DNA of 64,000 bases from Thermoplasmatales archaeon (GTDB lineage: Archaea; Thermoplasmatota; E2; DHVEG-1). The DNA lies in the NCBI GenBank assembly GCA_041305025.1, contig JBFYMG010000053.1, forward strand, positions 308 through 64,307. Direction: 5' to 3'. Below are positions 6,510 to 54,117 of the stretch, piece after piece. Numbering within the stretch: the stretch's first letter is position 1; each line of letters starts with the position of its first letter. The translations under genes and the position numbers were made by a program. The notes beneath the pieces were generated by a model, which did not search any database, had not been told where the DNA came from, and worked only from the letters and a program-made list of their open reading frames with translations.

Positions 6510-6688
6510 TGTAAATAATGGAATTAGTATATCTTCTAGTATTGTTATCGCCCTTGTCTATTAAGCATTCTAATAAGCTAAAACTCTTATAAATAAACTA
6601 TTAATTTTACAAATAATAATCAACTGCAGTGATAAGGTTTTATAAAGAAATAGCCATTATCAAATTGTAGGTTTGAGGAGGCAAATAT

Positions 6689-7596
6689 ATGAAAAAAATA
6701 GTATTGGTACTAATCGTTTTGATAATGATTGTTACAGGATTTTTAAGCGGATGCACTAACACAAATCAAACATCAGATGACGAAGAAAAAGAATCTGGTG
6801 GTCAAGAGTATATGTGGTCTACTATGACTCAGGGGCCATATAAAGACAAAGTTTCTTTTGCAAACAGCACCGACCTTCTAAACTGGACTGACTCAGGAGT
6901 AATTTTAGCGAACCATGCATCAGTGCCAGGTGCTATCTATAAAGATAATACAATTTACGTTTATTTTGTTGACGTTTCAGAAGACGGCAAACCGGAGCAA
7001 ATCGGACTTATTCATTCAACAGACAAGGGACAAACATGGTCTTCCAAAGAATATGTAATTTTTAATGGTATTGAGGATAAAGTTCCTGTAGACCTGCCCC
7101 TTTCCTGCTCGATGACGGAAGAACCAGAGTATATTACTTTGACATTAATGAGCAAAGAAGTTCATCTAACAAAGATGTAACGAACAAGATCTACTCGGCA
7201 ATTTCAACTGACGGAATAACTTTCGTGCAGGAAGATGGCGTTCGTTTTGAAAGAAAGGGGATTTTTGACCCAGATGTAATTGAAGTAAACGATGGATGGC
7301 GATTGTATGTTGGTGATATAGAGAACAACGATGTCATCTCAGCAGTTTCAACTGATGGCCTAAAATTTACTGAAGAAGGCACCGCATTTTCTGATGGCGC
7401 TGTACCAGATGTATTTTTCAAGAATAATATCTACTATCTCTACACGGCAGGAATTGATATTTCTACTTCCCAAAACGGAACCAGCTTTACAAAAACTTTG
7501 TATTCATTTAGATTGCAGGGCAAAATTACTGCCGACCCATCCGTTATCCAAATGGATGATGGAACATATATGATGTTATACAAAACCAAAGATTAA
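6689..7596 (+). pseudogene. Asp-box (BNR) beta-propeller lipoprotein, frameshifted
   Basis: Lipobox-like N-terminus (FLSGC). Asp-box STDKGQTW plus degenerate copies STDGITF and STDGLKF. The reading frame switches from frame 1 to frame 3 between 7079 and 7096, near the CCCC run. The frame-3 continuation PAPFLLDDGRTRVYYFD...IYSAISTDGITF joins the two track ORFs. Confidence 0.7.
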
Positions 7597-7630
7597 TCCT
7601 GACTTTGCATTTCATATATTTTACTGACAG

Positions 7631-8791
7631 ATGAATATAAATACAAAAAAGAATATCCCAAAAAAAGTGACCGTCAAAGAAGTAGAAGCAAAATCAATTT
7701 TACGTAAAAACAACAAAATTGACTCCTGGTTTATCTCTTATTATGGTATGAATTTATACCGGGGATGCACCCATGATTGCATCTACTGTGATGGGCGATC
7801 AGAAGGATACTATGTCGATGGAGAATTCGGCAAAGATGTTGTAGTAAAAATTAATGCCATCGATGTTTTACGTCGAGAGTTGGATTCGAAACGTAAACGA
7901 ACTCCATTTAAGAAAAGCTATATGCTGGTTGGTGGTGGCGTTGGTGATAGCTATCAACCCATCGAAAAAAAGTATGCGCTCACTCGAAAGACTCTTCAAT
8001 TGCTTTATGAAAATAATTGGCCGGTTCACCTTTTAACAAAATCAACACTTGTCAAAAGAGATATTGATATTCTGAAAAAGATTAATGAAAAAAATAGAGT
8101 AATTGTAAGTTTTAGTTTTTCATCAGCCGATGATAAGACAAGTGCGATATTTGAGCCGGGTGTTCCTTCACCTACTGAACGATTAAAAACTATTGAATTT
8201 TTTAAAGGCGAGGGATTCTCTTGTGGCATGTTTTTACTTCCAGTCATTCCATTTATCACAGATAAACCAAACTTGCTTGAGGAAACGATTCGACTGGCAA
8301 AAGATGCTGGTGTGGACTTCATCATCTTTGGCGGCATGACATTAAAAGATGGCAAACAGAAAGAATACTTTTTGAAAACGCTTAAAAAAACCTATCCAGA
8401 ACTGATTACCGAGTACAGTCATATATACCGAGGAGACAAATGGGGACAAGCAATCGGCGAATACTATGAGTCAATTAATCAAACATTTAATGCAATTGCA
8501 AAGAAATACAAAATACCCAAACGCATACCGCCTGCCTTATACAGAAACATTTTAAGTGAAAACGACTTAGTAATTGTTATTTTAGAACAGATCGACTATC
8601 TCTTAAAATTGGAAGAAAAAAAATCACCATATGGCTATGCCGCTTATTCTATTTCAAAATTAAATGAACCGCTTTCGTCTATAAAAAACGAATTGCAACA
8701 GATTAAAGGAGTTGGCCAAGTAACTGAACGAATCATCCTGGAAATTCTCAATACGGGAAGTTCTTCATACTATGAAAAATTATTAATTTGA
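7631..8791 (+). CDS. Radical SAM protein (SplB/COG1533-like) with C-terminal helix-hairpin-helix
   Basis: 386 aa. CX3CX2C motif in YRGCTHDCIYCDG. The C-terminal IKGVGQVTERIILEIL resembles an HhH motif. Confidence 0.8.
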   Translation: MNINTKKNIPKKVTVKEVEAKSILRKNNKIDSWFISYYGMNLYRGCTHDCIYCDGRSEGYYVDGEFGKDVVVKINAIDVLRRELDSKRKRTPFKKSYMLVGGGVGDSYQPIEKKYALTRKTLQLLYENNWPVHLLTKSTLVKRDIDILKKINEKNRVIVSFSFSSADDKTSAIFEPGVPSPTERLKTIEFFKGEGFSCGMFLLPVIPFITDKPNLLEETIRLAKDAGVDFIIFGGMTLKDGKQKEYFLKTLKKTYPELITEYSHIYRGDKWGQAIGEYYESINQTFNAIAKKYKIPKRIPPALYRNILSENDLVIVILEQIDYLLKLEEKKSPYGYAAYSISKLNEPLSSIKNELQQIKGVGQVTERIILEILNTGSSSYYEKLLI

Positions 8792-8905
8792 TGAAAAGCT
8801 TTTGAAGCGAAAAGTTTCTATCAATAAATTATAATTATAATTTAAGAAAAGTATATTTAGCTAATCGCAGTTAAGGATTAACAATAGTTAAGGGGGTTTT
8901 AAGAA

Positions 8906-11290
8906 GTGAGTAGAAATAAAAAAATAGCAAAAATTTTTGGAGCTGCTGTTGTACTTCTTTTAATAACATCGATTTCCGTAGTTGCAATGAGAGTTAATCA
9001 ACAAAACGAAGGTATAGATCCTTTTTTCGTGGTAAATAATGCCGATGCATCAGTTATTGGCCTTACCGTTAATATTCCAACATTTGAATTTGGCAGTACG
9101 TATATGAACGGAAAAAATTTTGCAACAATAGAATTGCCTAACGAAGGATTTACAATTATCCAAGGTGAGGCACAGTTACCAACCTTGAAGAGAATGATTG
9201 AAATACCTCAAGGTGCAAAAGCAGATATTGTTGTCAAATCAGTATCATGGAGATACACTTCATTAAAAGAACTGGGCCTTCCGACAAGAATTGCACCAGT
9301 GCAACCATCTCTTGTTAAAATACCAGATGCAACACAGAAATTTGCTATTAATGAAAAATACTATTTAACAAATACATTTACGCCAAAGATTTTGGCAAAG
9401 ATAGTTGACAGTGGAGAGATAAGAGATAGATGTTTTGTGCTCATTGAAGTATCACCAGTACAGTACAACCCGGTAACTGGCAAACTTAAGATAATGACAT
9501 CATGTGAACTAAATATCAATTTATGCGGTAGCGACATGACAAAAACTATCCAAAAAATAGAGCGCTTTAGTACTCCAGCTTTTGAAGATATGTTAAAGAC
9601 GGTATTTCTTAACTATGGGTTCTATGAAAAAAATATTGCAATTAGCCCAAAAGATCAAGAAGGATATCTGATAATTACCTACGCTGACTTCTCGGACGAG
9701 ATTCAGCCTTTAGCTGATTGGAAAGAAAGCAAAGGTTTTGATACAACAGTAACGATGACGTCCGAAATTCCAGGTGGGCCAACGAAAGAAAACATCAAGG
9801 CATATATCGTAGATGCTTACAACAATTGGCCGATTCCACCTGCCTACGTTCTTCTGGTCGGCGATGTCGCACAAATTCCATCTTGGACTGGTTCAGCCAC
9901 AGGAACATGCACCGACTTGTACTACGTAACCATTGATTCTGGCAATTACTTTGCTGATCTTATTATCAGCCGTTTTCCTGCAGCTCTACCAGAACACGTC
10001 ACAGCCATGGTAGACAAAACCATCTACTATGAACAGGGTAGTTTCCCGTCAAGCGAATGGATAAAAAAAGCAGCTTTCATGGCTTCTGAGGATAACTATG
10101 ATATTTCTGAAGGAACACACAACTATGTTATAGACACGTATCTTACTCCAAATGGATACACGTGCGATAAACTCTACAGCCATACTTATGATGCGACTAC
10201 CCAACAGGTTACTGATGCATTAAATAACGGACGTAGTTTAGCAATCTACTCAGGGCACGGTGGAACTGATTACTGGGCTGATGGGCCGTACTTTGATCAA
10301 TCAAATGTCAATGCATTAACCAACGACGGAATGTATCCTTTTGTCTGTAGTCATGCCTGTGTGACTGGTACGTTTTCTTCTGCAGAATGTTTTGGAGAAA
10401 CGTGGCTACGTGCACCGCACAAAGCAGGACTTGCATTCTGGGGTGCTTCTGAATCTACATACTGGGATGAAGACGACATTCTAGAAAGAAGTATGTTCAA
10501 AGCATGGTGGGAAGACAACCTTGAAAACATTGGCGGTATGACAAATATGGCGCTCTACTATCTATATCAATACTACAGTGGTGGAGGAAGTACCCAATAT
10601 TACTTCGAAGCATATAATGTTCTTGGAGATTCATCGGTAAAAATATGGCGCAACAATCCAAGTGACGCACCAGCAACACCCGATAAACCAACTGGACCAA
10701 ACCACGGAATTTTAAACACAGAATATACTTTCTCAAGCAAAACAACAGAGCCAGATGGAGATCAAATCTACTACATGTTCAGCTGGGGCGATGGAACCTA
10801 CAGCGAGTGGATTGGACCATATGACTCAGGAACAACTGTAACTGATACACACTTTTGGTCAATAGTGGGAACATATGATGTAAAAGTAAGTGCAAAAGAT
10901 ACATATGGCGCACAAAGTGCTTGGTCAGTGCCTCTTACAATATCGATTGTTGATAACAATCCACCAGATACACCTACACTAAATGGTCCAGCAAGTGGAA
11001 AACCTGGTGTAGCATACCTTTACACATTTTCCACAATAGATCCTGAGGGAGACATTGTATACTACTTCGTCGACTGGGGCGATGGAACGGATAGTGGATG
11101 GCTCGGACCTCATCAGTCTGGCGCACAAGCATCAACCACCCATAGCTGGGATACACAAGGAACATATGCTGTAAAAGTCAAAGCAAAAGATGCGCAAGGT
11201 GACGAAAGCGACTGGGCAACTTTAGACGTAACTATGCCTTTAGAAATACAATGCAGTCAGTTATTACTTAGAATATTGAAACAACTTTAG
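8906..11290 (+). CDS. Secreted peptidase C25 (gingipain-like) with two C-terminal PKD-like modules
   Basis: 794 aa with a GTG start and a signal/anchor N-terminus. C25 hallmarks: VLLVGDVAQIP, DLYYV, ISRFP, a His in YSGHGG and a Cys in CSHACVTG. Two copies of about 90 aa carry the DWGDGT-type motif. Confidence 0.8.
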   Translation: MSRNKKIAKIFGAAVVLLLITSISVVAMRVNQQNEGIDPFFVVNNADASVIGLTVNIPTFEFGSTYMNGKNFATIELPNEGFTIIQGEAQLPTLKRMIEIPQGAKADIVVKSVSWRYTSLKELGLPTRIAPVQPSLVKIPDATQKFAINEKYYLTNTFTPKILAKIVDSGEIRDRCFVLIEVSPVQYNPVTGKLKIMTSCELNINLCGSDMTKTIQKIERFSTPAFEDMLKTVFLNYGFYEKNIAISPKDQEGYLIITYADFSDEIQPLADWKESKGFDTTVTMTSEIPGGPTKENIKAYIVDAYNNWPIPPAYVLLVGDVAQIPSWTGSATGTCTDLYYVTIDSGNYFADLIISRFPAALPEHVTAMVDKTIYYEQGSFPSSEWIKKAAFMASEDNYDISEGTHNYVIDTYLTPNGYTCDKLYSHTYDATTQQVTDALNNGRSLAIYSGHGGTDYWADGPYFDQSNVNALTNDGMYPFVCSHACVTGTFSSAECFGETWLRAPHKAGLAFWGASESTYWDEDDILERSMFKAWWEDNLENIGGMTNMALYYLYQYYSGGGSTQYYFEAYNVLGDSSVKIWRNNPSDAPATPDKPTGPNHGILNTEYTFSSKTTEPDGDQIYYMFSWGDGTYSEWIGPYDSGTTVTDTHFWSIVGTYDVKVSAKDTYGAQSAWSVPLTISIVDNNPPDTPTLNGPASGKPGVAYLYTFSTIDPEGDIVYYFVDWGDGTDSGWLGPHQSGAQASTTHSWDTQGTYAVKVKAKDAQGDESDWATLDVTMPLEIQCSQLLLRILKQL
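10670..10953 (+). repeat. PKD-like C-terminal module, copy A1
   Basis: PATPDKPTGP...EPDGDQIYYMFSWGDGTYSEWIGPYDSG...YDVKVSAKDTYGAQSAWSVPL. Confidence 0.7.
10960..11239 (+). repeat. PKD-like C-terminal module, copy A2
   Basis: NPPDTPTLNGP...DPEGDIVYYFVDWGDGTDSGWLGPHQSG...YAVKVKAKDAQGDESDWATLDVTMP. Confidence 0.7.
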
Positions 11291-11315
11291 GTTCTCAGTG
11301 AAAAACTAAGAACCT
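11289..11315. terminator. Hairpin plus T-rich tract between convergent genes
   Basis: AGGTTCT-(13 nt)-AGAACCT, followed by CTCTTATTTTCTTATTTTTT. It lies between the 3' ends of the C25 gene and the FG-GAP gene. Confidence 0.35.
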
Positions 11316-11364
11316 CTCTTATTTTCTTATTTTTTGTCACGGTTATTTTAGAAATTACTTTGAT

Positions 11365-12630
11365 TTAATTGTTCCCATTTGAAGATTCTTCCCAGCCGTA
11401 TTTGAAAACCCAAGACATAAAATCCTGTCCGTTATCGACGCCAACATTCCCCGCATTAATTTCGTTTTTACCGTCGTTGTCGCAGTCCCCGATGCTTATA
11501 ACTGCCATCCAGCCATAAGTGGGAAGTGTTGCCTCTTCAATGTATGTTATTCCATTCCATTGCAGTATGTGGGTAACACCGGCTCCAGCAACTACTTCCG
11601 GGATTCCGTCGTCATCAGTATCTCCAACATCAATTCCTTCGATGACCGGATCCCCGCCGGGCCAGGTGACATCAAATTGAGTCGCATAACCGGATCCATT
11701 CCATTTAAAAATGGTGATATGTGGATAATAATAGCTTACTAAAATCTCAGCATTCCCATCTCCATCGCAATCTTTACATACACAACCAAATGGTGTATCT
11801 TGTCCATGAGGTATATTAATGATTACAGTCGAATCAAAAACGTTGTTTTCTTCGTTCCATTTCAGAACTACAACTTTACCTGAACAAGCACAAACAATCT
11901 CATTTTGTCCATCATTGTCAACATCGCCTAGCCCCGGCATATATACGTAGCCATAACCAGGATCATCCCATTGAGCTATCTTAACTAGTCGAAATCCGTT
12001 CCATTTAAAGATTGCAATTTCGGGAATTGTACTTGAAGATCTCAATGGACCACCACTAACAATCAGTTCATTTTTTCCATCGTTGTTGCAATCTCCAATA
12101 TAGCAGTCAGCACTTCCGCCCCCATTCCTCAACAGCCAAGAATTCCAGCCAACTGTCCAGTATCTTCCCGCAATATATTTGTGAATGGCACAATACCAAG
12201 TAGCAGCAATCTCATTTTTTCCATCATTATTTAGATCCCCAATAGCAAAACCACCAGCATCCGCTCTTAGAATTGGATAAAACGGACAATGAAGTGCCTG
12301 GGTTTGAACGTAGGTTTTTTGATTTTGGTTCCATTCCATAACTCTTAGCATGGCATCTCTTCCGCCAATTAGCAGTTCATTTTTTCCGTCGTTATTGCAA
12401 TCACCAATAGGTTGAGGTCCTTCATAGCGCGCCCCATACATAGGACTAGAGCCATAACTCATCTGCCACTGAATGCCGTAATCATCACTAGAGTTGGTTA
12501 AAATCGACACATCACTTTTCTTGATATCTTTTGCTTTATTTTCATATGCACTTGCCATTCCGATTGAAACGATGACCAGACTTGCGATCAAAAATATTGC
12601 AGCTATCTTTTTCCTCATAAATTTCCCCAT
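11365..12630 (-). CDS. Secreted seven-blade FG-GAP/VCBS beta-propeller protein
   Basis: Seven Ca-binding-type repeats: GDCNNDGKNELLIGG, GDLNNDGKNEIAA, GDCNNDGKNELIVSG, GDVDNDGQNEIVCA, KDCDGDGNAEILVS, GDTDDDGIPEVVAG, GDCDNDGKNEINAG. Signal peptide present. The track start at 12636 is TTG, so ATG at 12630 or 12618 is more likely. Confidence 0.85.
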   Translation of the reverse strand: MGKFMRKKIAAIFLIASLVIVSIGMASAYENKAKDIKKSDVSILTNSSDDYGIQWQMSYGSSPMYGARYEGPQPIGDCNNDGKNELLIGGRDAMLRVMEWNQNQKTYVQTQALHCPFYPILRADAGGFAIGDLNNDGKNEIAATWYCAIHKYIAGRYWTVGWNSWLLRNGGGSADCYIGDCNNDGKNELIVSGGPLRSSSTIPEIAIFKWNGFRLVKIAQWDDPGYGYVYMPGLGDVDNDGQNEIVCACSGKVVVLKWNEENNVFDSTVIINIPHGQDTPFGCVCKDCDGDGNAEILVSYYYPHITIFKWNGSGYATQFDVTWPGGDPVIEGIDVGDTDDDGIPEVVAGAGVTHILQWNGITYIEEATLPTYGWMAVISIGDCDNDGKNEINAGNVGVDNGQDFMSWVFKYGWEESSNGNN

Positions 12631-12784
12631 CTTCAATATGTACGTTTCATATATTAAATTAACTAGTGTTAATCAATAGTGCAAAACGGAAATAAGACGA
12701 GTTAGAAATGTTTTTGTTCGGCTTTTTCCGAACATTTTCTGACCTTTTAAATACATTCGAAGACAATATAGTCTTGGCGATAAT

Positions 12785-13213
12785 ATGAAAGCAAATAAAA
12801 CAATAATAATATATGTAATGCTGGCGGTGGTTGCTTCCATTATAACAGGTACTGTGATTAGTGTTGCCCTTTCAGAGACGCCGATGAAGACTAACAATAA
12901 AACAATATACTTAACTGAGAAAGATAATGGTTCTACGATATCAGTAATAAAAGGAGATATGTTGAATCTAACGCTCCAAGACCATGGCGATGGTGGATAT
13001 ACATGGACCATTACTGAAATCGATGAAAAGACGCTAGGTCAAGTTGAGCAATTTAATTGGGGCAATTCCGGTGCACTCGGTGATTTTGGAAAAGATACCT
13101 GGATATTCTCTGCAAAAAATATTGGCACCACAACACTACAATTGGAATGTAAAAGACCATGGATCGGCGGAGATACGTCCGAGACGATAAGTATTACCAT
13201 AAAAGTCAATTAA
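12785..13213 (+). CDS. Chagasin-family (I42) cysteine peptidase inhibitor with N-terminal membrane anchor
   Basis: 142 aa. It is collinear with chagasin: NGSTISVIKGDMLNLTL, GDGGYTW (in place of NPTTGxxW), ALGDFG, KRPW (the RPW loop). Confidence 0.85.
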   Translation: MKANKTIIIYVMLAVVASIITGTVISVALSETPMKTNNKTIYLTEKDNGSTISVIKGDMLNLTLQDHGDGGYTWTITEIDEKTLGQVEQFNWGNSGALGDFGKDTWIFSAKNIGTTTLQLECKRPWIGGDTSETISITIKVN

Positions 13214-13376
13214 GAACATGATATCAACACGATACTTTCCTCTTTTTTTCTTTTTTAAACTTTTTTTAAAATTAGAGTATTATTTCTAATATTTTTCTTA
13301 TTTCTAATCAAGAGCATCATTTAATTAACAAGTGTTTATTAATGAGTTGTTGTATTATAGTTTGGGTGGTTATCTT

Positions 13377-15596: not shown

Positions 15597-15632
15597 AATA
15601 CCAGCAGTTATCCGACATGTAACTTACAAAAT

Positions 15633-16175
15633 CTACCATTTATCATAGCGTACGATTTCATCCAAATTCTTTCTTTTTCTACCTCTAGTAAATATCTTTG
15701 TTAAACTGCCTAATATTCCAATCTTTTCAGCTGGATACCCGAGAGGAATGAGTGCCACGACTCTGATTCTATTTGGAATTCCAAGGATTTCTTTAACTTT
15801 TTTTTCGTCAAAACCGGCATTCCAACAGCTTCCCAAACCAGCGTCAGTAGCAGCAAGAATAAGATTTTCCGTGGCAATTGCAACATCAACTGTGTAGTAT
15901 TCAATATCATTATGAGTGCCACTTGATTCAGGATCACCGCACGCGACTATGACAACCGGTGCAGTTTTCAGCCATCGGTTAATGATGCTTGTTTTAGACA
16001 GGGCTTTAATGGCTTCTTTGTCCCTTACAACAATAAAACGCCAACATTGTTTGTTCACCCAGGAAGGTGCCCATCGTGCGCATTCAAGAACGTACTTTAT
16101 CTTTTCTTCATCTACTTCTTTATCGCTATAATTGCGAATGCTTGTACGGGATTTTATTACATCTGAAAATTCCAT
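15633..16175 (-). CDS. Nitroreductase-family FMN oxidoreductase
   Basis: 180 aa. TSIRNYSDKEVDEEKIKYVLECARWAPSWVNKQCWRFIVV is the typical nitroreductase N-terminal region. Confidence 0.85.
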   Translation of the reverse strand: MEFSDVIKSRTSIRNYSDKEVDEEKIKYVLECARWAPSWVNKQCWRFIVVRDKEAIKALSKTSIINRWLKTAPVVIVACGDPESSGTHNDIEYYTVDVAIATENLILAATDAGLGSCWNAGFDEKKVKEILGIPNRIRVVALIPLGYPAEKIGILGSLTKIFTRGRKRKNLDEIVRYDKW

Positions 16176-16302
16176 TGCGACGCCTCCACCGTTGTTACTT
16201 CAGCTGTAATCATTCTTTCTTTATTAAAATATTTTTAATCACAAAAAATCGTTTATATTAGCACATATATTATGATATTACATTTCGGTGGAGGTAAAGG
16301 TT

Positions 16303-18432
16303 ATGAAGAAAATATTGACGGTAGGAGTTTTGTTTATTTTATTAATACCTGCATTTTCGACCACACATATTTTCGCAAGAACTGAAAATAACGTGGATGA
16401 CGAAGTATCGACAGATCATAGTAGTTTGGACAATTTTGTGGTGTTTATGAAAGAGGGTTTGATGCCTTCTATTCCAGATGACTTTGAAGCTCAGTGCATT
16501 AAGAAAACATACATGGTTCCAATGCGCGATGGAATAAAACTAGCAACAGATGTGTACCTGCCGATTTTACAAATTAAACAACACGGTAGCGTTTTACTAC
16601 GCACACCATATAATAAAAGTGACATAGCTATCGTTGGTTACATATTTGCTTTCCTGGGCTGGCCAACAGTTATCCAAGATATGCGAGGTCGTTACGAATC
16701 TGGTGGAAATGATACAGTCTACCGCAATGATCACACTGATGGGCCAGATACATTACAATGGATTGGGACACAAGAATGGTCAAATGGCAAAGTAGCTACA
16801 GTCGGGCCATCAGCACTAGGGATAGTACAATATTTGATGGCTGGTGAAAATCCACCTGAGCTTGCATGCCAGGCAATAATGGTTGCTTCACCAAATCTAT
16901 ACAAAACCGCAATTTATCAGGGTGGACAGTTCAGAAAAGAGCTAGTAGAAAGATGGCTAGCAGGACAAGACGCTGAATTCATGCTACCGGAAATCTGGGA
17001 TAACGAAAACTACACACTTGATTTTTGGACCAATGTATCACTAGATGACAACTGGCCTGATGTAAACGTACCAGCCATACATTTCGGCGGATGGTACGAT
17101 CCATTCCAACAAGGTATAACAGAGGGATACAACGGCTACCAACATCTCGCAGGACCAGGAGCCCAAGGAAAATCCATGCTAATAATGGGGCCGTGGTACC
17201 ACGATGGATACATAACAACCAAACAAGGACAACTAGTCTACCCGGAGAACTCACTATGCTGGTTTGCTGTAGAGATATATCTGCAGATGATAAAAAAATA
17301 TACGATGAACGAAAACAACCATTTTGACGACTACTCAAAAGTCTATTATTATACTATGGGTGATGCCAATACAATTGATGCACCAGGAAACGAATGGAGA
17401 ACTGCAAACGACTGGCCAATACCAGCAACAAACACACCATGGTACCTACATGATAATGGTTTGCTAGACACAAACTACCAAAGTGACTACGAACCAATAA
17501 CATATCAATACAACCCGACAAATCCAGTGCCAACACTTGGTGGACAAGTACTAGAAATTCCGCCAGGGCCATACGACCAAACACCATTAGAAAACAGGGA
17601 GGATGTCCTCGTTTTTACAAGCCCAGTTCTAACAGAACCTTATGAAGCTACGGGACCAATAAAAGCAAAAATATATGTTTCATCTGATTGCGTTGACACG
17701 GATTTCACAGTAAAACTCACAGATGTTTATCCAGATGGTCGCTCAATGATAATAACGGACGGAATACTACGGATGAGAAACAGAAACGGACAAGACCATT
17801 GGGAATTCATGCAACCTGGAGAAATATACGAGATAAACATAGACATGTGGAGTACATCTTACATATGGAACACGGGACACAAAATAAGAGTAGCAGTTTC
17901 ATCATCAAACTACCCAAAGTTTCTAAGCAATCCAAACACAAATGACCCAATATACAAAAACATAACATACAACATTGCACACAACACTCTATACATAGAC
18001 GGCCAACACCCATCATGCATAATCCTACCAGAAATAGAACAAAGCCCATCTAGCAACCCACCAGAAAAACCAAACAAACCAACAGGTAGAACACACATCA
18101 AAGTTAATCAGATCTACAAATATTCAAGCTCTGCAAACGACCCAGATGGAGACCAGATTTATCTTTTATTTGACTGGGATGACGGAACAAGCAGTGGATG
18201 GATAGGACCATACAATTCAGGCGAACCAGTAACAGCAAAACACAAATGGACAACAAAAGGCAACTACGAAATACGAGTAAAAGCAAAAGACATAAATGGA
18301 ACACAGAGCGAATGGTCAGATCCTATGGTTATCAGCATGCCAAAGGACAGAGGAATGTTAGGGTCTTTGTTGCTAAAATTATTAGAAAGATTTCCGCGTT
18401 TGTTTCCATTTCTAAGGAATATGTTCATTTGA
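16303..18432 (+). CDS. Secreted CocE/NonD-family (S15, X-Pro dipeptidyl-peptidase-like) hydrolase with C-terminal PKD-like module
   Basis: MRDGIKLATDVYLP...LLRTPYNK, and a nucleophile-type GPSALG motif. Signal peptide MKKILTVGVLFILLIPAFS. GGAGGT precedes ATG 16303. The track ORF starts at GTG 16288. Confidence 0.85.
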   Translation: MKKILTVGVLFILLIPAFSTTHIFARTENNVDDEVSTDHSSLDNFVVFMKEGLMPSIPDDFEAQCIKKTYMVPMRDGIKLATDVYLPILQIKQHGSVLLRTPYNKSDIAIVGYIFAFLGWPTVIQDMRGRYESGGNDTVYRNDHTDGPDTLQWIGTQEWSNGKVATVGPSALGIVQYLMAGENPPELACQAIMVASPNLYKTAIYQGGQFRKELVERWLAGQDAEFMLPEIWDNENYTLDFWTNVSLDDNWPDVNVPAIHFGGWYDPFQQGITEGYNGYQHLAGPGAQGKSMLIMGPWYHDGYITTKQGQLVYPENSLCWFAVEIYLQMIKKYTMNENNHFDDYSKVYYYTMGDANTIDAPGNEWRTANDWPIPATNTPWYLHDNGLLDTNYQSDYEPITYQYNPTNPVPTLGGQVLEIPPGPYDQTPLENREDVLVFTSPVLTEPYEATGPIKAKIYVSSDCVDTDFTVKLTDVYPDGRSMIITDGILRMRNRNGQDHWEFMQPGEIYEINIDMWSTSYIWNTGHKIRVAVSSSNYPKFLSNPNTNDPIYKNITYNIAHNTLYIDGQHPSCIILPEIEQSPSSNPPEKPNKPTGRTHIKVNQIYKYSSSANDPDGDQIYLLFDWDDGTSSGWIGPYNSGEPVTAKHKWTTKGNYEIRVKAKDINGTQSEWSDPMVISMPKDRGMLGSLLLKLLERFPRLFPFLRNMFI
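18058..18341 (+). repeat. PKD-like C-terminal module, copy C
   Basis: PPEKPNKPTG...DPDGDQIYLLFDWDDGTSSGWIGPYNSG...YEIRVKAKDINGTQSEWSDPMVISMP. The nucleotide string GAGTAAAAGCAAAAGACAT is shared with copy B. Confidence 0.7.
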
Positions 18433-18487
18433 AAAAATGAACAAACCACTGGAATTTGAGATTATGATTATTCCTTGAGTTGTATTG

Positions 18488-19627
18488 TTATGCATCTTTT
18501 GCTTTTCGTATTTGGTGTTCGATTGCTTCGTAGGCATTTTTCATTGCTTGCATCGGCCCATGGCCTTCATGAGATGCATAAAAAATCCCGCGTCGCGAGG
18601 ATAATTTCATCTCGCAGACGACCCGATGGATACCATGTTTTGCCTCTTTATGTTGCTCCAATGAAACGTGTAGATATCCGGTTTCAAGGAATTTTTCATA
18701 ATGATTTAGGAATTCTACTCTGAGAAAACTGGATACTTGTTCTTTATCAAATCCATCGACTTTTTTGGTGTTGTGGTGGAACTGGATCTCAAAAGGCTCT
18801 GGTTCTGTAAGTCCGACGAAGGGTGCAAGAAGCTCTTTATGGGTGACTATCCCGTGAAGATTGTTATCTTTTCCAATGAGAATGCCATCTTGGTCGAATT
18901 TATTCATGCGAATATGTACATCTTGTATTGTTGCATCTGGTGACATGAGCAATGGTTTTTCATCCATGATATTTTTTACGAGCAAGTCAAGTTTTTTATT
19001 TTTTTCTCCATTAGAATAGCCATGTCCCGTCCATCCTCCGGTTCTGGCGCCGGGATGCATCACCTTTTCAATAATATCTTCCATGGTAATTGCACCGACG
19101 ATTTTTGTATGATCGACAACCGCAAGGTAAGGAATGTTATGTTGTTGAAACATATTGATGACTTTCCCGATTGTTTCCTCCGGGCTTATTGAAAGTGGTT
19201 GTGTACACATGATGGTTTTTATCGGCTGTGATCCAGAATTTTGTTCAGTGAGTTTTCTCACTACATCATCTGCGGTGACAATGCCAACGAAGACATCAGT
19301 ATCTATAACTGGAAGATGATAAACATCGTTCTCATTCATGAGGCGAGCAATCTCTTCAACTGGAGTTTTTGGAGAAAGTTTTGGAGTATGCGTTAAAAAG
19401 GTGTGGACTTTTGTTTCAAGCGAAATCTTTGGCTCCATAAGACATCGTTTCAAAAGCATTCCTTGGTATTTTTCTTTATCCATGACGACGATTGCATCCG
19501 TATCTTTAAACAGAGATAATACTTTGGAAAATGTTTCATTTGCATCTATCTTTACAACATCTTGATTTATTATGTCTTTAGCAGATACCATAATATCACT
19601 TCTTTTTAGTGTAGCAGGAAAGTCCAT
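18488..19627 (-). CDS. CBS-domain protein (about four CBS repeats) fused to an HPF/RaiA-like C-terminal domain
   Basis: 379 aa. It has repeated CBS-type segments. The C-terminal 100 aa (FEIQFHHNTKKVD...YLHVSLEQHKEAKHGIHRVVCEMKL...ASHEGHGPMQAMKNAYEAIEHQIRKAKD) follows the HPF/YfiA pattern. Confidence 0.7.
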   Translation of the reverse strand: MDFPATLKRSDIMVSAKDIINQDVVKIDANETFSKVLSLFKDTDAIVVMDKEKYQGMLLKRCLMEPKISLETKVHTFLTHTPKLSPKTPVEEIARLMNENDVYHLPVIDTDVFVGIVTADDVVRKLTEQNSGSQPIKTIMCTQPLSISPEETIGKVINMFQQHNIPYLAVVDHTKIVGAITMEDIIEKVMHPGARTGGWTGHGYSNGEKNKKLDLLVKNIMDEKPLLMSPDATIQDVHIRMNKFDQDGILIGKDNNLHGIVTHKELLAPFVGLTEPEPFEIQFHHNTKKVDGFDKEQVSSFLRVEFLNHYEKFLETGYLHVSLEQHKEAKHGIHRVVCEMKLSSRRGIFYASHEGHGPMQAMKNAYEAIEHQIRKAKDA

Positions 19628-19770
19628 TATAAATGTTTGTTACAGGCGGGGTCATCAATTTATTTAAAAAAATAATATAACTAGAATTAATTAGTTAATA
19701 ATCTGGAAATGTTTAAATAAACATTATCCATATGGGTTAACGTCTGTTAAGTTTTGACAGGGGGTAAAAA

Positions 19771-21585
19771 ATGAAAAAGTTGTTACCGTTATTTGTAGTA
19801 GGAATTTTGGTCCTTAGTGGACTTGGAGCTGTTTCTATAAGCAATAAAACAACCAATGATTTGAAAATCAAGACAGAATCAATTGCTATTTCTGAACCTG
19901 CCATCAAAGATGCAGGCCAATATGTGACATTAATTCTAGAAGAAGCAGCATCATCTCTTTTAGATTCTGGAAAACCCGTGCTGCCTGCTTTAACAAAGGT
20001 GTTTACCTTTCCATTTGGAACAAAAATTAGTAGTGTTGATGTGAGTTTTTCTGAAACAAATGAACTAGTTTTGTCAAAAGAAGTTAAGCCTACAGCCGAA
20101 CCGGTTCCAGTAGGCTCAAAGGTAGCAAATGAACCGATAAAAGATACGACAGTATATGGAAGCGCAGAGCTGTATCCGGCCACAAGTTATAGTTATACCA
20201 CCGGAGCAGGTTTGGACGGCAAAGATCACGTTGTTTATCTTGCTGTACAATGTTATCCTGTTAGATATTCTCCTGCTAAAAACACTATTTATTATAGTGA
20301 AAGCGCTGAAATCCAAGTAACCTATGAAGAACCCGCGACTCCAACAGTATTTTCTGATCAGTATGATCTCGTTATTATATCCCCTTCTGAATTTTCAAAC
20401 GAACTACAACCTTTGATTGATCACAAGATCAATATGGATGTCAATACCATACTGAAGACGACCGAGGACATATATTCGGAGTATAACGGTTTTGATCAGG
20501 CTGAAAAAATAAAATACTTTATTAAAGATGCAATTGAAACCTGGGGTGCAGAGTATGTTCTGCTTGTTGGAAGAGTTGATAAGTTACCCATCAGAACCAC
20601 ATGGTTTCATGCAAGACACCACGAACATTATTGGAATGAAACCGTTCTATCTGATCTTTACTATGCTGACATATACGATACAAATGGGGACTTTTGTAGC
20701 TGGGATTCCAATGGAAATGGCTTGTACGGGGAAATTTATGAGGATTGCCCTGGTGTAGAAGATATATTTGACCTTTATCCGGATGTTAACGTCGGTCGTT
20801 TGCCCTGCGAAAAGAATTCAGAAGTTAGAGTAGTTGTTAATAAGATAATAAACTATGAAACAGGCACCTTTGGTAAGAGCTGGTTCAATAACATAATTCT
20901 CGTAGGAGGCGATACATTCCCAGGTTGGAATGGAAATGAAGGTGAAGAAAAAAACCTGATTACAGAACAAATAATGTCAGAGTTTACACCAATAAAATTA
21001 TGGACTTCCGACGGCACATTTAATGCACGGTCACTAAATAAGGCAATAAATAGAGGTGCTGGATTTATTGATTATTCTGGCCATGGCTTTGAGATAGGAG
21101 TTGCTACCCATCCGCCAGAAAGTAGCGATACGGATTGGGTGGCTTATCACACTAACAATCTTCTAGGCGCTATGAATGGAAATAAGCTCCCCATTGTCTT
21201 CTTTGATGCCTGTCTAACTGCAAAACTTGATTTCAATTTTTCTGAACTTGTAGGCTATGGCGCCAAAAATTTACAGCCCATCGTAAATAAATTTAGTAAG
21301 ATAGCGTCTAAGCTTATTCCCACTTTTGCATGGTGCATAGTGAGAAAGAGTAATGGTGGTGCTATCGCAACTATAGGTGCTACTAGGACAGCCTTTGGAG
21401 GTATAGATAGTGGTGCCGGTTATATATCGCTCCGCTTTTTTGAGGCTTATTCAACTAGTGAAACAGTGTCTCAGATGTTGACAAAAGCACAGAATGATTA
21501 CATCACATATATCCCGTTTGATCGCTTTACTGTTGAAGAATTCATCCTCATAGGAGATCCGAGCCTAAAGATAGGGGGATACTAA
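19771..21585 (+). CDS. Secreted peptidase C25 (gingipain-like), no PKD-like module
   Basis: 604 aa with a signal peptide. YVLLVGRVDKLP, DLYYADIYD, NVGRLP, a His in YSGHGFE and a Cys in FFDACLTA. Confidence 0.75.
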   Translation: MKKLLPLFVVGILVLSGLGAVSISNKTTNDLKIKTESIAISEPAIKDAGQYVTLILEEAASSLLDSGKPVLPALTKVFTFPFGTKISSVDVSFSETNELVLSKEVKPTAEPVPVGSKVANEPIKDTTVYGSAELYPATSYSYTTGAGLDGKDHVVYLAVQCYPVRYSPAKNTIYYSESAEIQVTYEEPATPTVFSDQYDLVIISPSEFSNELQPLIDHKINMDVNTILKTTEDIYSEYNGFDQAEKIKYFIKDAIETWGAEYVLLVGRVDKLPIRTTWFHARHHEHYWNETVLSDLYYADIYDTNGDFCSWDSNGNGLYGEIYEDCPGVEDIFDLYPDVNVGRLPCEKNSEVRVVVNKIINYETGTFGKSWFNNIILVGGDTFPGWNGNEGEEKNLITEQIMSEFTPIKLWTSDGTFNARSLNKAINRGAGFIDYSGHGFEIGVATHPPESSDTDWVAYHTNNLLGAMNGNKLPIVFFDACLTAKLDFNFSELVGYGAKNLQPIVNKFSKIASKLIPTFAWCIVRKSNGGAIATIGATRTAFGGIDSGAGYISLRFFEAYSTSETVSQMLTKAQNDYITYIPFDRFTVEEFILIGDPSLKIGGY

Positions 21586-29200: not shown

Positions 29201-29260
29201 TCCAGCAATCCCACCGCCGACAACGGCAACCGCTCCAATCTTGTCAGATTTATGTGTCAT
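26213..29260 (-). CDS. Double HdrA-like flavoprotein (two HdrA-type FAD modules in one 1015-aa chain)
   Basis: Module 1: [27 protein letters not shown]...[15 protein letters not shown]. An internal HdrA N-domain motif, [15 protein letters not shown], lies at about aa 455. Module 2: [28 protein letters not shown]. Several CX2CX2CX3CP ferredoxin motifs. Confidence 0.85.
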   Translation of the reverse strand: [1015 protein letters not shown]

Positions 29261-29266
29261 ATCTCT

Positions 29267-29932: not shown

Positions 29933-29933
29933 G

Positions 29934-31052: not shown

Positions 31053-31062
31053 AATTCATCTC

Positions 31063-31521: not shown

Positions 31522-31526
31522 CTATC

Positions 31527-36044: not shown

Positions 36045-36054
36045 AATCTAAATC

Positions 36055-38010: not shown

Positions 38011-38022
38011 GTAACCTCACAT

Positions 38023-38895: not shown

Positions 38896-38901
38896 CCACC
38901 T

Positions 38902-39429: not shown

Positions 39430-39446
39430 TATGTACCACTTATAAA

Positions 39447-45292: not shown

Positions 45293-45373
45293 AAGGAATA
45301 TCCGTCGACGATAAACTTATTAGTTATTCACTGTTATGGGGTCACTACCATGTTTTAAAGGAGGGAAACACCA

Positions 45374-54095: not shown

Positions 54096-54117
54096 GAAGT
54101 AAAGTGGAGTGAACTCT

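What the first reader, a model, noticed from the sequence alone, without database searches (positions are those of the whole stretch)
6689..21585. 15-kb island of secreted hydrolases: three C25 gingipain-like peptidases, an S15 peptidase, an inhibitor and a propeller
Nearly every gene here has a signal peptide or N-terminal anchor. These are an Asp-box lipoprotein (frameshifted), C25 peptidases at 8906, 13377 and 19771, a CocE/NonD S15 hydrolase, a seven-blade FG-GAP propeller and a membrane-anchored chagasin-type inhibitor. In each C25 protein a candidate catalytic His/Cys pair is visible (GHG or GHA, then HAC, QGC or DAC). This is a concentrated extracellular proteolysis toolkit. Gingipain-like enzymes have been reported from uncultured sediment archaea. 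The local combination with an inhibitor and an adhesion-type propeller looks like a coordinated surface system.
Basis: partly seen in the sequence, partly recalled or inferred. Interest (0 to 1): 0.65.

Follow-up and report, generated by a model that had tools for sequence, protein, structure and literature searches.

The report
Archaeal secreted gingipain-type peptidase gene cluster
A sediment archaeon of the Thermoplasmata (MBG-D/Thermoprofundales-like) carries three intact gingipain-type protease genes, an S15 hydrolase, a papain-type inhibitor and a propeller side by side. This is that lineage's already-known protein-scavenging kit, not a new coordinated system, although several of its enzymes share a C-terminal tail that the libraries searched do not describe.

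Summary
Window 6689-21585 encodes three C25 (gingipain-family) peptidases with pro-domains and conserved catalytic His/Cys. It also encodes a CocE/NonD S15 hydrolase with an intact Ser-Asp-His triad, a seven-repeat FG-GAP propeller, a membrane-anchored I42 (chagasin-family) inhibitor and a lipoprotein broken by a 1-nt deletion. Seven of the ten genes have an N-terminal signal or anchor, against 1 of 37 elsewhere in the window.

Three unrelated cytoplasmic genes (radical SAM, nitroreductase, CBS) are interleaved, both strands are used, and GC content equals the window average. A close relative lacks both the propeller and the S15 gene.

In more distant Thermoplasmata the I42 gene has a papain-like C1 peptidase gene upstream on the opposite strand, adjacent in four loci. 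Its likely target is therefore C1, not C25.

Named relatives are Thermoprofundales (MBG-D) genomes, where abundant, expressed, exported C25 peptidases are already published. This is a new member of a known kind.

One by-product is worth more. The S15 hydrolase ends in a PKD domain plus a roughly 30-residue helix-Pro-helix tail. That tail matches at the extreme C-terminus of at least 573 protein clusters from many secreted families. No Pfam or NCBIfam model hits it and it has no transmembrane helix. It may be an undescribed archaeal sorting or anchoring signal.

The parts
6689..7596 (+). Frameshifted lipoprotein with a lipobox-like LSG|C. It is probably a beta-propeller of the GH43/BNR type, with one canonical Asp-box. 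A 1-nt deletion near 7094 splits it into ORFs 6689-7180 and 7225-7596.
   Evidence: tblastn against the intact 305-aa orthologue of L001 and the L002 orthologue switches frame at VPVD|PAPF. The DNA alignment shows the missing base. GH43 and BNR_2 match only below their cut-offs.
7631..8791 (+). Interleaved cytoplasmic gene: radical SAM (Rv2578c-family-like) plus a helix-hairpin-helix domain. It is not part of the secreted set.
   Evidence: Pfam Radical_SAM and HHH_8. NCBIfam rSAM_Rv2578c at 193.8 bits, below its cut-off of 430. No signal peptide. Its position is conserved in L001-L003.
8906..11290 (+). C25#1, a gingipain-type cysteine peptidase zymogen. Layout: signal peptide (aa 1-27), C25 pro-domain (aa 43-234), catalytic domain (aa 254-579; His451 at 10256-10258, Cys485 at 10358-10360, Asp396, Asp523), two PKD domains (aa 601-776) and a short C-terminal tail (11234-11287).
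   Evidence: Pfam. PDB hits to Kgp (136 bits), RgpB (119 bits) and both gingipain pro-domains, with residue-level alignment. His, Cys and Asp523 are invariant in 120 of 120 orthologues and Asp396 in 116 of 120. Coordinates.
11365..12636 (-). Secreted FG-GAP beta-propeller with seven repeats, each carrying a Ca-binding-type D-x-[DN]-x-D-G-x-x-E motif. Signal peptide with an ASA|Y site. A variable accessory gene.
   Evidence: Pfam FG-GAP_3 at 101 bits. Seven motif copies. Signal heuristic. Present in L002/L003 and absent from L001.
12785..13213 (+). Chagasin-family (I42) cysteine-peptidase inhibitor with an N-terminal 25-residue uncharged membrane anchor. Loop motifs: DHGDGGY.W (L2), GALGDFGKD (L4) and KRPW (L6).
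   Evidence: Pfam Inhibitor_I42 at 48.1 bits against 27.2. The profile matches amoebiasin-1, Pseudomonas ICP and chagasin structures. Loop motifs are invariant in 18 homologues. Anchor.
13377..15596 (+). C25#2, a gingipain-type peptidase zymogen. Layout: signal peptide, pro-domain, catalytic domain (His481 at 14817-14819, Cys511 at 14907-14909), one PKD domain and a conserved short tail MPLDLNIQIIQQQYHMILRNH (15531-15593).
   Evidence: Pfam C25 at 189 bits, pro-domain at 58 bits. PDB hits only to the Kgp pro-domain and to a PKD structure. His and Cys sit in invariant columns of the paralogue alignment and are kept in relatives. The tail shows 2-3 non-synonymous against 5 synonymous codon changes versus L001 and L002.
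15633..16175 (-). Interleaved cytoplasmic nitroreductase-family gene. Not part of the secreted set.
   Evidence: Pfam Nitroreductase at 123.9 bits. No signal peptide. Its position is conserved in L001-L003.
16303..18432 (+). CocE/NonD (MEROPS S15) serine hydrolase. Layout: signal peptide, alpha/beta-hydrolase domain (Ser170 at 16810-16812, Asp266 at 17098-17100, His300 at 17200-17202), PepX_C jelly-roll, one PKD domain and a canonical C-terminal tail MPKDRGMLGSLLLKLLERFPRLFPFLRNMFI (18337-18429). A variable accessory gene.
   Evidence: TIGR00976 at 351 bits. Pfam. CocE structure at 263 bits, with the triad aligned to Ser117, Asp259 and His287 (the CocE numbering is my own knowledge). Tail HMM at 45 bits. 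Absent from L001 and present in L002/L003. Coordinates.
18488..19627 (-). Interleaved cytoplasmic protein with four CBS domains. Not part of the secreted set.
   Evidence: Pfam CBS at 125.5 bits with four stretches. No signal peptide. Conserved in L001-L003.
19771..21585 (+). C25#3, a gingipain-type peptidase zymogen. Layout: signal peptide, pro-domain and catalytic domain (His438 at 21082-21084, Cys481 at 21211-21213). It ends right after the catalytic domain (…GDPSLKIGGY), with no PKD domain and no tail.
   Evidence: Pfam C25 at 202.5 bits and pro-domain at 31.8 bits. His and Cys align to RgpB His211 and Cys244. Both are kept in seven relatives. C-termini.

Best explanation
This is a stable chromosomal neighbourhood, not a mobile island, of an uncultured Thermoplasmata archaeon related to Thermoprofundales/MBG-D. 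Genes for exported proteins have accumulated between unrelated housekeeping genes.

The core is three anciently diverged paralogues (26-28% identical) of gingipain-type C25 cysteine endopeptidases. The proposed route for each is as follows.
- Export through the Sec pathway, using an N-terminal signal peptide (inferred).
- Latency as a zymogen, held by an N-terminal C25 pro-domain (the domain is shown; the latency is inferred from gingipains).
- After pro-domain removal, cleavage of environmental proteins with a His/Cys dyad (the residues are shown; the activity is inferred).
- C25#1 keeps an invariant Asp at the position of the Kgp S1 residue Asp516, so cleavage after Lys or Arg is likely (inferred).

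The CocE/NonD S15 serine hydrolase has an intact triad. It probably trims the resulting peptides or esters (inferred).

C25#1, C25#2 and the S15 enzyme carry C-terminal PKD domains followed by a short helical tail. This most likely holds the enzymes at the cell surface or on particulate substrate (inferred).

The membrane-anchored I42 protein most likely protects the cell surface from papain-like C1 peptidases, either its own (encoded elsewhere) or those of neighbours. It is unlikely to regulate the adjacent C25 enzymes.

The FG-GAP propeller and the decayed propeller lipoprotein are variable accessory surface proteins.

Together this is the extracellular protein-scavenging equipment already described for this lineage.
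For: Domain identities and thresholds.

Catalytic residues: aligned to Kgp and RgpB (catalytic Cys477 and His444 of Kgp per PMC5266723). Invariant in 120 C25#1 orthologues and in relatives of C25#2 and C25#3. The pro-domains match solved gingipain pro-domains. The S15 triad aligns to CocE.

Export: N-terminal signal or anchor features in 7 of 10 genes against 1 of 37 elsewhere.

Not an island: GC 0.386 against 0.388, both strands used, and gaps of 34-179 nt. The flanks (ETF, HpaB-like, aminotransferase, P-type ATPase) and the gene order are conserved in relatives, with propeller, S15 and NosD genes gained or lost. PLSDB holds no plasmid relative of the catalytic domain.

C25 paralogues also cluster in other contexts: arrays of 2-4 C25 genes in relatives about 52% identical.

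I42 and C1: 10 of the 16 distant loci have a Peptidase_C1+Lectin_like gene upstream of I42 on the opposite strand. The other six are loci with only about 100-1,100 bases of upstream sequence or exceptions. The I42 loops are invariant across both groups. Chagasins are described as inhibitors of papain-like C1 peptidases (PMC7863939).

Lineage and prior knowledge: named relatives are SG8-52-3, SG8-52-4, SM1-50 and 3300003432D, which Zhou et al. list as Thermoprofundales MAGs. C25 peptidases are reported as extracellular and highly transcribed there (PMC6461988). They make up 41-45% of signal-peptide-bearing peptidase genes in White Oak River sediment (PMC6752024).
Against: - No dedicated signal-peptide predictor was available, so export rests on a hydrophobicity, charge and (-3,-1) heuristic.
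- No activity, expression or localisation data exist for this organism.
- C25#2 does not hit a solved gingipain catalytic domain by single-sequence search. Its dyad assignment rests on Pfam and the paralogue alignment.
- P1 specificity is inferred from one aligned Asp.
- The I42 L2 loop lacks the canonical NPTTG motif ([YH]GDGG instead), so its inhibitory mode is not guaranteed.
- No C1 gene lies in this 64-kb window or in the flanks fetched for the close relatives. In this lineage the I42 gene has kept its place between C25 genes in the three close-relative loci examined. That leaves room for a local role.
- Assignment of the window itself to Thermoprofundales rests on named protein relatives only 45-58% identical, not on marker genes.
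Confidence: 0.8

Rival explanations
1. Coordinated surface system. The FG-GAP propeller scaffolds or attaches the peptidases, and the anchored I42 inhibitor directly regulates the neighbouring C25 enzymes at the cell surface.
For: The order C25#1 - (propeller) - I42 - C25#2 is conserved in the three close-relative loci examined, L001-L003. All these proteins are predicted to be exported or anchored. No C1 gene lies in the 64-kb window.
Against: The propeller and the S15 gene are missing from L001, which is otherwise syntenic. The genes are on both strands and interleaved with cytoplasmic genes. The I42 family is described only against papain-like peptidases, and the listed complexes are all with C1 enzymes. 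Distant I42 orthologues pair with C1 genes and have identical loop motifs. C25 enzymes carry their own pro-domain inhibitors.
Confidence: 0.1
2. Sortase-like role. One or more of the C25 paralogues acts like PorU, the C25-family sortase of the bacterial type IX secretion system. C25#3, which lacks the PKD domain and tail, is one candidate. It would cleave the conserved [KR]-N-[KR] junction between the PKD domain and the C-terminal tail of cargo proteins, releasing or re-anchoring them.
For: All three proteins give weak partial hits to the PorU models (NF033707 at 73.8, 43.5 and 69.2 bits). The tail junction carries conserved basic residues, which suit a Lys/Arg-specific C25 enzyme. Tail-bearing cargo (the S15 enzyme) is encoded next to C25 genes.
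Against: The PorU hits are far below the cut-off of 420 and only reflect the shared C25 catalytic fold. Kgp and RgpB are much better matches. C25 genes are highly multi-copy and highly expressed in this lineage, which fits bulk digestion better. The window's own C25#1 and C25#2 tails lack the basic junction.
Confidence: 0.08
3. Pseudo-peptidases or adhesins. The C25-like proteins have lost catalysis and serve as binding proteins.
For: The neighbouring lipoprotein gene is frameshifted, which shows some decay in the region. C25#2 is too divergent to hit solved catalytic domains directly.
Against: His and Cys are conserved in all three paralogues and their relatives. Asp396 and Asp523 are also conserved in C25#1. 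All three ORFs are intact and full length, with pro-domains.
Confidence: 0.03
4. Horizontally acquired or plasmid-borne island. A 2022 study placed C25 genes on predicted plasmids in 27 Thermoprofundales genomes.
For: PMC9585477 reports C25 genes on predicted plasmids. Gene content at this locus varies between relatives.
Against: GC content is indistinguishable from the window. No integrase, transposase, tRNA or flanking mobile genes are present. The flanks are core metabolism and are syntenic in relatives. PLSDB holds no relative of the catalytic domain.
Confidence: 0.03

Closest known systems
Gingipains Kgp and RgpB of Porphyromonas gingivalis (MEROPS family C25, clan CD)
   Same: Same order of signal peptide, inhibitory N-terminal pro-domain and caspase-like catalytic domain. 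The catalytic His and Cys are aligned. In C25#1 an Asp also aligns with each of Kgp Asp388 and Asp516. C-terminal Ig-like domains follow the catalytic domain.
   Different: Archaeal host without an outer membrane or a type IX secretion system. No T9SS C-terminal domain and no haemagglutinin/adhesin domains; PKD domain(s) plus a short helical tail take their place, and C25#3 has nothing after the catalytic domain. Substrate specificity is untested.
Exported gingipain-like C25 peptidases of Thermoprofundales/MBG-D (Lloyd et al. 2013 as cited in PMC9585477; Zhou et al. 2018, PMC6461988; Steen et al. 2019, PMC6752024)
   Same: Same lineage (named relatives SG8-52-3, SG8-52-4 and SM1-50), same family, multi-copy and predicted extracellular. 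Those papers report them as abundant and transcribed. The window's genes are further members of this set.
   Different: The passages read in those papers treat the genes as counts per genome. The local arrangement, the three-paralogue structure, the I42 neighbour and the shared PKD-tail module were not mentioned in them.
Chagasin / ICP / amoebiasin (MEROPS inhibitor family I42)
   Same: Above-threshold Pfam match. The profile aligns end to end with amoebiasin-1, Pseudomonas ICP and chagasin structures. The L6 R-P-W/F motif and a Gly-rich L4 loop are kept. The gene is linked to a papain-like C1 gene in related archaea.
   Different: The L2 motif NPTTG is replaced by an invariant [YH]GDGG. An N-terminal membrane anchor is present. 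In this lineage the C1 partner gene is not adjacent, and the gene sits between C25 genes.
Cocaine esterase CocE and alpha-amino-acid ester hydrolases (CocE/NonD, MEROPS S15)
   Same: 263-bit match over the hydrolase and jelly-roll domains, with the Ser-Asp-His triad aligned. TIGR00976 subfamily at 351 bits.
   Different: Exported, with an added C-terminal PKD domain and tail. Whether it acts as an exopeptidase or an esterase is unknown.
C-terminal sorting signals: T9SS CTD of gingipains, and PGF-CTERM/archaeosortase, PEP-CTERM and LPXTG signals
   Same: The PKD-tail module is strictly C-terminal and is shared by many unrelated exported enzymes that also have N-terminal signal peptides. That is the hallmark of a sorting signal.
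   Different: No transmembrane helix (median best 19-residue hydropathy 0.59). No match to any Pfam or NCBIfam model, even at E <= 10. Predicted as two short helices split by a Pro, not a beta-sandwich CTD. No partner enzyme has been identified.

Membership tests
MEROPS C25 / Pfam PF01364 (gingipain family) | Catalytic-domain profile match above the curated threshold | tested here: met
   229.7, 189.3 and 202.5 bits against a cut-off of 23, each covering almost the whole 374-position model.
MEROPS C25 / Pfam PF01364 (gingipain family) | Catalytic His and Cys at the positions of Kgp His444/Cys477 and RgpB His211/Cys244 | tested here: met
   C25#1 aligns directly to Kgp and C25#3 directly to RgpB. 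C25#2 is placed through the invariant His and Cys columns of the paralogue alignment. The residues are kept in 120 of 120 C25#1 orthologues and in local relatives of #2 and #3.
MEROPS C25 / Pfam PF01364 (gingipain family) | N-terminal inhibitory pro-domain (PF08126) | tested here: met
   62.2, 58.3 and 31.8 bits against a cut-off of 22. Matches to the solved Kgp and RgpB pro-domains.
MEROPS C25 / Pfam PF01364 (gingipain family) | Endopeptidase activity with Arg or Lys at P1 | not testable with these tools
   Only indirect evidence: an invariant Asp523 in C25#1 aligns with Kgp Asp516. The role of Asp516 is from my own knowledge of the Kgp structure.
PorU / type IX secretion sortase (NCBIfam NF033707) | Model match above the curated cut-off | tested here: not met
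   73.8, 43.5 and 69.2 bits against a cut-off of 420. These are partial matches over the shared catalytic core only.
MEROPS I42 (chagasin family) | PF09394 match above threshold and an end-to-end alignment with solved members | tested here: met
   48.1 bits against 27.2. The profile hits amoebiasin-1 (E = 5.6e-6), Pseudomonas ICP and chagasin.
MEROPS I42 (chagasin family) | Three binding loops: L2 NPTTG, L4 GxGG and L6 RPW | tested here: inconclusive
   L6 RPW is present. L4 is Gly-rich but reads G-D-F-G. L2 is [YH]GDGG instead of NPTTG, and is invariant in 18 archaeal homologues. The canonical motifs are from my own knowledge and agree with the aligned PDB sequences.
MEROPS I42 (chagasin family) | Inhibition of papain-like (C1) peptidases | not testable with these tools
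   Indirect evidence: a C1 gene lies upstream of the I42 gene in 10 of 16 loci from related archaea. Family specificity per PMC7863939.
CocE/NonD hydrolases (MEROPS S15; TIGR00976) | Model above cut-off, with the S15 and PepX_C domains and a Ser-Asp-His triad | tested here: met
   351.4 bits against 66.3. PF02129 at 126 bits and PF08530 at 157 bits. Ser170, Asp266 and His300 align to the CocE triad.
FG-GAP / integrin-alpha-type seven-bladed propeller | Seven FG-GAP repeats with Ca-binding loops | tested here: met
   FG-GAP_3 at 101 bits. Seven regularly spaced D-x-[DN]-x-D-G-x-x-E motifs at residues 78-383. The fold itself was not modelled.
GH43 / BNR (Asp-box) propellers, for the frameshifted lipoprotein | Profile match above threshold | tested here: not met
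   GH43 at 17.5 bits against 32.2, and BNR_2 at 16.1 bits against 31.4. One canonical Asp-box (STDKGQTW) can be seen in the sequence.
Known C-terminal sorting signals (PGF-CTERM, PEP-CTERM, LPXTG, T9SS CTD), for the PKD-tail module | Signature motif followed by a transmembrane helix and a basic cluster, or the T9SS beta-sandwich CTD; a match to the curated models | tested here: not met
   No Pfam or NCBIfam hit at E <= 10. No 19-residue window in the tail exceeds hydropathy 1.19. AlphaFold2 predicts two short helices.

The most novel reading that the evidence does not exclude
The C-terminal module carried by the S15 hydrolase, and in shortened form by C25#1 and C25#2, may be an undescribed archaeal sorting, anchoring or processing signal for exported proteins. 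It appears to be largely confined to Thermoplasmata.

The module is a PKD domain, then a '…[VI][ST]MP-[KR]-N-[KR]' junction, then a tail of about 25 residues with the consensus 'xxNxxFLxFLE[RN][FH]PxxFP[IL]LRxLLGL'. The tail is predicted as helix-Pro-helix.

Its role would be analogous to the T9SS C-terminal domain of bacterial gingipains or to PGF-CTERM, but it would work without a transmembrane segment. It might act as an in-plane amphipathic membrane anchor, releasable by cleavage at the basic junction.

Evidence:
- 573 cluster representatives match at E <= 1e-3.
- In 132 of the top 149 hits the match ends within 3 residues of the C-terminus.
- Carriers span NosD/beta-helix, PQQ and FG-GAP propellers, CBM96, and C25, C11, C1, C10, M14 and M28 peptidases.
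- 53 of 65 full-length carriers have N-terminal signal-like segments.
- In the S15 enzyme the tail is better conserved than the adjacent PKD domain.

Probability: 0.4. Interest if true: 0.6.

Novelty: new member of a known kind. Interest (0 to 1): 0.3.

Why it matters
Exported C25 peptidases of MBG-D/Thermoprofundales are thought to be major agents of protein remineralisation in anoxic sediments. This locus adds a clean, full-length example with three ancient paralogue types, intact active sites and a defined domain layout. That makes it useful for choosing constructs for expression and substrate profiling.

It also corrects a tempting over-reading. The neighbouring chagasin-type inhibitor most likely belongs with papain-like C1 enzymes, not with the gingipains.

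The shared PKD-plus-tail module, if it proves to be a sorting or anchoring signal, would help to explain how these archaea keep costly exoenzymes at the cell. It would also give a sequence tag for recognising their surface proteome in metagenomes.

Tried and rejected
1. Compositional or mobile island: rejected. GC equals the window average. No tRNA and no Rfam hits. No mobile-element domains among the window ORFs scanned. No plasmid relatives of the catalytic domain.

2. I42 retargeted to C25: considered because the gene sits between C25 genes. Rejected as the main reading because distant orthologues pair with C1 genes and share identical loop motifs.

3. A C1 peptidase elsewhere in the window: searched for among all ORFs of 150 aa or more, and none found.

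4. PorU-type sortase membership: scores are far below the cut-off.

5. The tail as a known sorting domain: no Pfam or NCBIfam hit even at E <= 10. Literal motif strings found in no paper. The keyword search gave nothing relevant.

6. The tail as a transmembrane anchor: rejected on hydropathy.

7. Searches for papers on PDB 4xed or an S15 'dark matter' aminopeptidase returned nothing usable. The origin of 4xed in an MBG-D single-cell genome is only my recollection.

The rerun returned mostly short fragments, useful only for organism names.

9. One codon comparison (the C25#2 PKD segment) was out of register because of an indel and is ignored.

Full report
**What is there**

Between 6689 and 21585 the window holds ten genes. 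Pfam, NCBIfam and PDB comparisons identify them as follows.

| Coordinates | Strand | Identity |
|---|---|---|
| 6689-7596 | + | Lipoprotein broken by a frameshift |
| 7631-8791 | + | Cytoplasmic radical SAM/HhH protein |
| 8906-11290 | + | C25#1: C25 pro-domain, C25 catalytic domain, two PKD domains |
| 11365-12636 | - | FG-GAP protein |
| 12785-13213 | + | I42 chagasin-family inhibitor |
| 13377-15596 | + | C25#2: pro-domain, catalytic domain, one PKD domain |
| 15633-16175 | - | Nitroreductase |
| 16303-18432 | + | CocE/NonD S15 hydrolase: S15, PepX_C and PKD domains |
| 18488-19627 | - | Four-CBS-domain protein |
| 19771-21585 | + | C25#3: pro-domain and catalytic domain only |

All family matches for the hydrolases, the inhibitor and the propeller are well above their curated cut-offs. 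Only the lipoprotein's GH43 and BNR_2 matches fall below threshold.

**Are the enzymes intact?**

- C25#1 aligns to the Kgp catalytic domain with His451 and Cys485 on Kgp His444 and Cys477. Asp396 and Asp523 fall on Kgp Asp388 and Asp516. The chain index plus 228 reproduces all four Kgp residue numbers, so the register is self-consistent. Cys477 and His444 are the catalytic residues per PMC5266723. The Asp roles are from my own knowledge.
- In 120 orthologues His, Cys and Asp523 are invariant, and Asp396 is kept in 116.
- C25#3 aligns to RgpB with His438 and Cys481 on His211 and Cys244.
- C25#2 hits no solved catalytic domain directly. Its His481 and Cys511 occupy the two invariant columns of the paralogue alignment and are kept in relatives.
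- The paralogues are only 26-28% identical, so they are ancient, not recent copies.
- The S15 protein matches cocaine esterase at 263 bits, with Ser170, Asp266 and His300 on the CocE triad.
- The FG-GAP protein has seven evenly spaced Ca-loop motifs.

**Export**

No dedicated predictor was available, so I used a heuristic based on n-region charge, a 12-residue hydropathy window and (-3,-1) sites.

- It finds a single N-terminal signal-like segment in seven of the ten genes. One is a lipobox-like LSG|C in the lipoprotein. Another is a 25-residue uncharged anchor in I42.
- It finds none in the radical SAM, nitroreductase and CBS proteins.
- Elsewhere in the window only 1 of 37 genes, a PstS-like binding protein, scores this way.
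- The enrichment has hypergeometric P = 1.4e-5.

**The frameshift**

tblastn of the intact 305-aa orthologue from L001 switches from frame 1 to frame 3 at VPVD|PAPF. The DNA alignment shows one missing base near 7094, outside any homopolymer run. It is either a true pseudogene or an assembly error.

**Whose genome, and is it an island?**

- C25#1 has more than 2,600 relatives at E <= 1e-10. The named ones are Thermoplasmatales archaeon SG8-52-3, SG8-52-4 and SM1-50 and 'Euryarchaeota archaeon'.
- I42 relatives lie in Thermoplasmata and Thermoplasmatota MAGs, including isolate 3300003432D.
- Zhou et al. list SG8-52-3, SG8-52-4, SM1-50 and 3300003432D as Thermoprofundales (MBG-D) genomes.
- The rest of the window fits an anaerobic archaeon: ETF, an HpaB-like protein, large Hdr/Mvh-type clusters, and form III RuBisCO with AMP phosphorylase and an IF-2B-family isomerase.
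- The region's GC content (0.386) equals that of the window (0.388). The genes use both strands, with 34-179 nt gaps.
- There are no tRNA genes, Rfam hits or mobile-element domains.
- In relatives whose C25#1 is 82% and 74% identical, the flanks and the order radical SAM - C25#1 - I42 - C25#2 - nitroreductase - CBS are conserved. L001 lacks the propeller and the S15 gene. L002 and L003 have an added NosD beta-helix gene.
- Relatives about 52% identical carry arrays of two to four C25 genes in a different context and without I42.

The region is therefore a chromosomal neighbourhood with a conserved core and variable secreted-protein accessories. It is not an acquired island and not an operon.

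**The inhibitor**

- I42 homologues fall into a group at least 80% identical (the window's lineage) and a group about 50% identical.
- I examined 16 loci of the second group, four from metagenomes and twelve from species-representative genomes.
- Ten of the 16 have a roughly 610-640-aa Peptidase_C1+Lectin_like gene upstream of I42 on the opposite strand. It is directly adjacent in four loci, often with a C25 or C11 gene beyond it.
- Of the other six loci, three have only about 100-1,100 bases upstream, two have 6-10 kb upstream without a C1 gene, and one carries an atypical, longer I42 ORF.
- Chagasin-family proteins are described as inhibitors of papain-like peptidases, and every chagasin complex listed in the review is with a C1 enzyme (PMC7863939).
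- The loop motifs (LQD[YH]GDGGY.W, G.LGDFGKD, C.R[PS][WF]) are the same in both groups. They align with the NPTTG, GxGG and RPW loops of amoebiasin, ICP and chagasin.
- The most economical reading is that the I42 protein guards the cell surface against C1 peptidases. In the window's lineage the C1 partner gene has moved or been lost locally. No C1 gene lies within this 64 kb.
- The C25 enzymes have their own pro-domain inhibitors.

**Comparison with what is known**

Exported gingipain-like C25 peptidases are a signature of this lineage.

- They are cited as common and active in sediments (PMC9585477).
- They are predicted to be extracellular and are among the most highly transcribed peptidase genes in Thermoprofundales MAGs, together with extracellular C01A (PMC6461988).
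- They account for 41-45% of signal-peptide-bearing peptidase genes in White Oak River sediment (PMC6752024).

The locus is thus a new member of a known kind. Membership in C25, I42 and S15 is met on the sequence-testable criteria, apart from the divergent L2 loop of I42. PorU-sortase membership is not met.

**A by-product that may be new**

The S15 hydrolase ends, after its PKD domain, in MPKDRGMLGSLLLKLLERFPRLFPFLRNMFI. Many C25#1 orthologues end in the same kind of tail, with the consensus …MP[KR]N[KR]..N..FL.FLE[RN][FH]P..FP[IL]LR.LLGL.

- Distribution. A 35-position profile of 20 tails, searched against 1.84 billion cluster representatives, found 573 proteins at E <= 1e-3. In 132 of the top 149 the match ends within three residues of the C-terminus.
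- Carriers. They range from 50 to 835 aa. They include NosD/beta-helix, PQQ-type and FG-GAP_2 propellers, CBM96, C25, C11, C1, C10 and M14 proteins, usually with a PKD domain just upstream. An M28 fragment appears.
- Signals. 53 of 65 full-length carriers have N-terminal signal-like segments.
- Taxonomy. Named carriers are Thermoplasmata, Thermoplasmatales or 'Euryarchaeota' archaea, plus one partial Heimdallarchaeaceae entry.
- Structure. The tail has no transmembrane-grade hydrophobic stretch. AlphaFold2 on 46 PKD-tail sequences gives a very confident PKD domain (pLDDT 97-98). It is followed by two helices at residues 100-112 and 114-124, at pLDDT 61-69. Their amphipathicity is moderate.
- Databases. 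The tail matches no Pfam or NCBIfam model even at E <= 10. Its motif strings occur in no searchable paper.
- Selection. Between the window and L002 the S15 tail has 2 non-synonymous and 4 synonymous codon changes in 31 residues. The adjacent PKD segment has 26 and 27 in 80.
- The window's own C25 tails. C25#1 and C25#2 carry shorter, non-canonical tails that do not reach the profile threshold. The C25#2 tail is nonetheless conserved among relatives. C25#3 has no PKD domain or tail.

I read this as a candidate C-terminal retention, sorting or processing signal. Its function is not shown, and I cannot exclude that it is simply a structural cap of this PKD subtype.

**Verdict**

The 'toolkit' reading is supported, and the 'coordinated system with inhibitor and propeller' reading is not. 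The finding is ordinary for this lineage and scores low to moderate. The PKD-tail module is the lead worth following.

Noticed in passing
window 18337-18429 (S15 tail). Shorter variants at 11234-11287 and 15531-15593. Also L002 13359-13451 and L004 genes ending at 9976, 17319 and 20504.: A conserved C-terminal tail follows a PKD domain (…MP[KR]N[KR]..N..FL.FLE[RN][FH]P..FP[IL]LR.LLGL). It occurs at the extreme C-terminus of at least 573 protein clusters from many secreted families. It has no transmembrane helix and no Pfam or NCBIfam model. AlphaFold2 predicts helix-Pro-helix.
   Followed up: partly
L009 7780-9621(-) with 10001-10432(+). Also L007, L008, L010, L011, L012, L015, L018, L019 and L020.: In Thermoplasmata MAGs whose I42 is about 50% identical to the window's, the I42 gene has a ~610-640-aa Peptidase_C1+Lectin_like gene upstream on the opposite strand. 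A C25 or C11 gene often lies next to that. This is a conserved inhibitor/target-type gene pair.
   Followed up: partly
L001 5143-7721, compared with window 6510-6688: The closest long relative has four extra genes between the GDT1 transporter gene and the lipoprotein gene. They are a 125-aa ORF, DUF1805, a PALP-family enzyme and a 154-aa membrane protein. All are absent from the window.
   Followed up: no
L001 17442-19547: The C25#3 orthologue carries an extra C-terminal extension of about 65 residues, low in complexity and rich in Gln and Ser. It ends …LNNLIMRHQIGI, which resembles the tail ending. The window's copy stops at …GDPSLKIGGY.
   Followed up: no
L022 3897-4778: The I42-matching ORF is about twice the usual length (293 codons stop to stop), and only residues 43-128 of the query match. 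It may be a fusion or an upstream extension. A C25#3-like gene follows it.
   Followed up: no
window 26213-39453 (-): A long same-strand run of heterodisulfide-reductase/Mvh-type genes. It includes two giant fused HdrA-like flavoproteins (1015 and 1505 aa), an MvhD/FlpD gene, an FrhB-like gene and an HdrB-like (CCG-domain) gene, plus HdrC-like ferredoxin-type genes.
   Followed up: no
window 51958-55644 (+): Three adjacent genes: an IF-2B-family gene (ribose-1,5-bisphosphate isomerase type), a RuBisCO large subunit and an AMP/thymidine-phosphorylase-type gene. This looks like the archaeal AMP-salvage module.
   Followed up: no
window 44258-48046 (+): A histone-deacetylase-family gene sits next to an 890-aa fusion of an ADP-forming acyl-CoA synthetase-like protein with a GNAT domain (Pat-type protein acetyltransferase architecture). 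This may be an acetylation/deacetylation pair.
   Followed up: no
PDB 4xed, compared with window 15246-15536 and 18049-18345: The PKD domains here are very close to the solved 99-residue PKD domain deposited as 'Peptidase M14, carboxypeptidase A' (72-104 bits). That construct ends at …VTMP, which is the PKD/tail boundary. I recall, but did not verify, that its source is an MBG-D single-cell genome.
   Followed up: no
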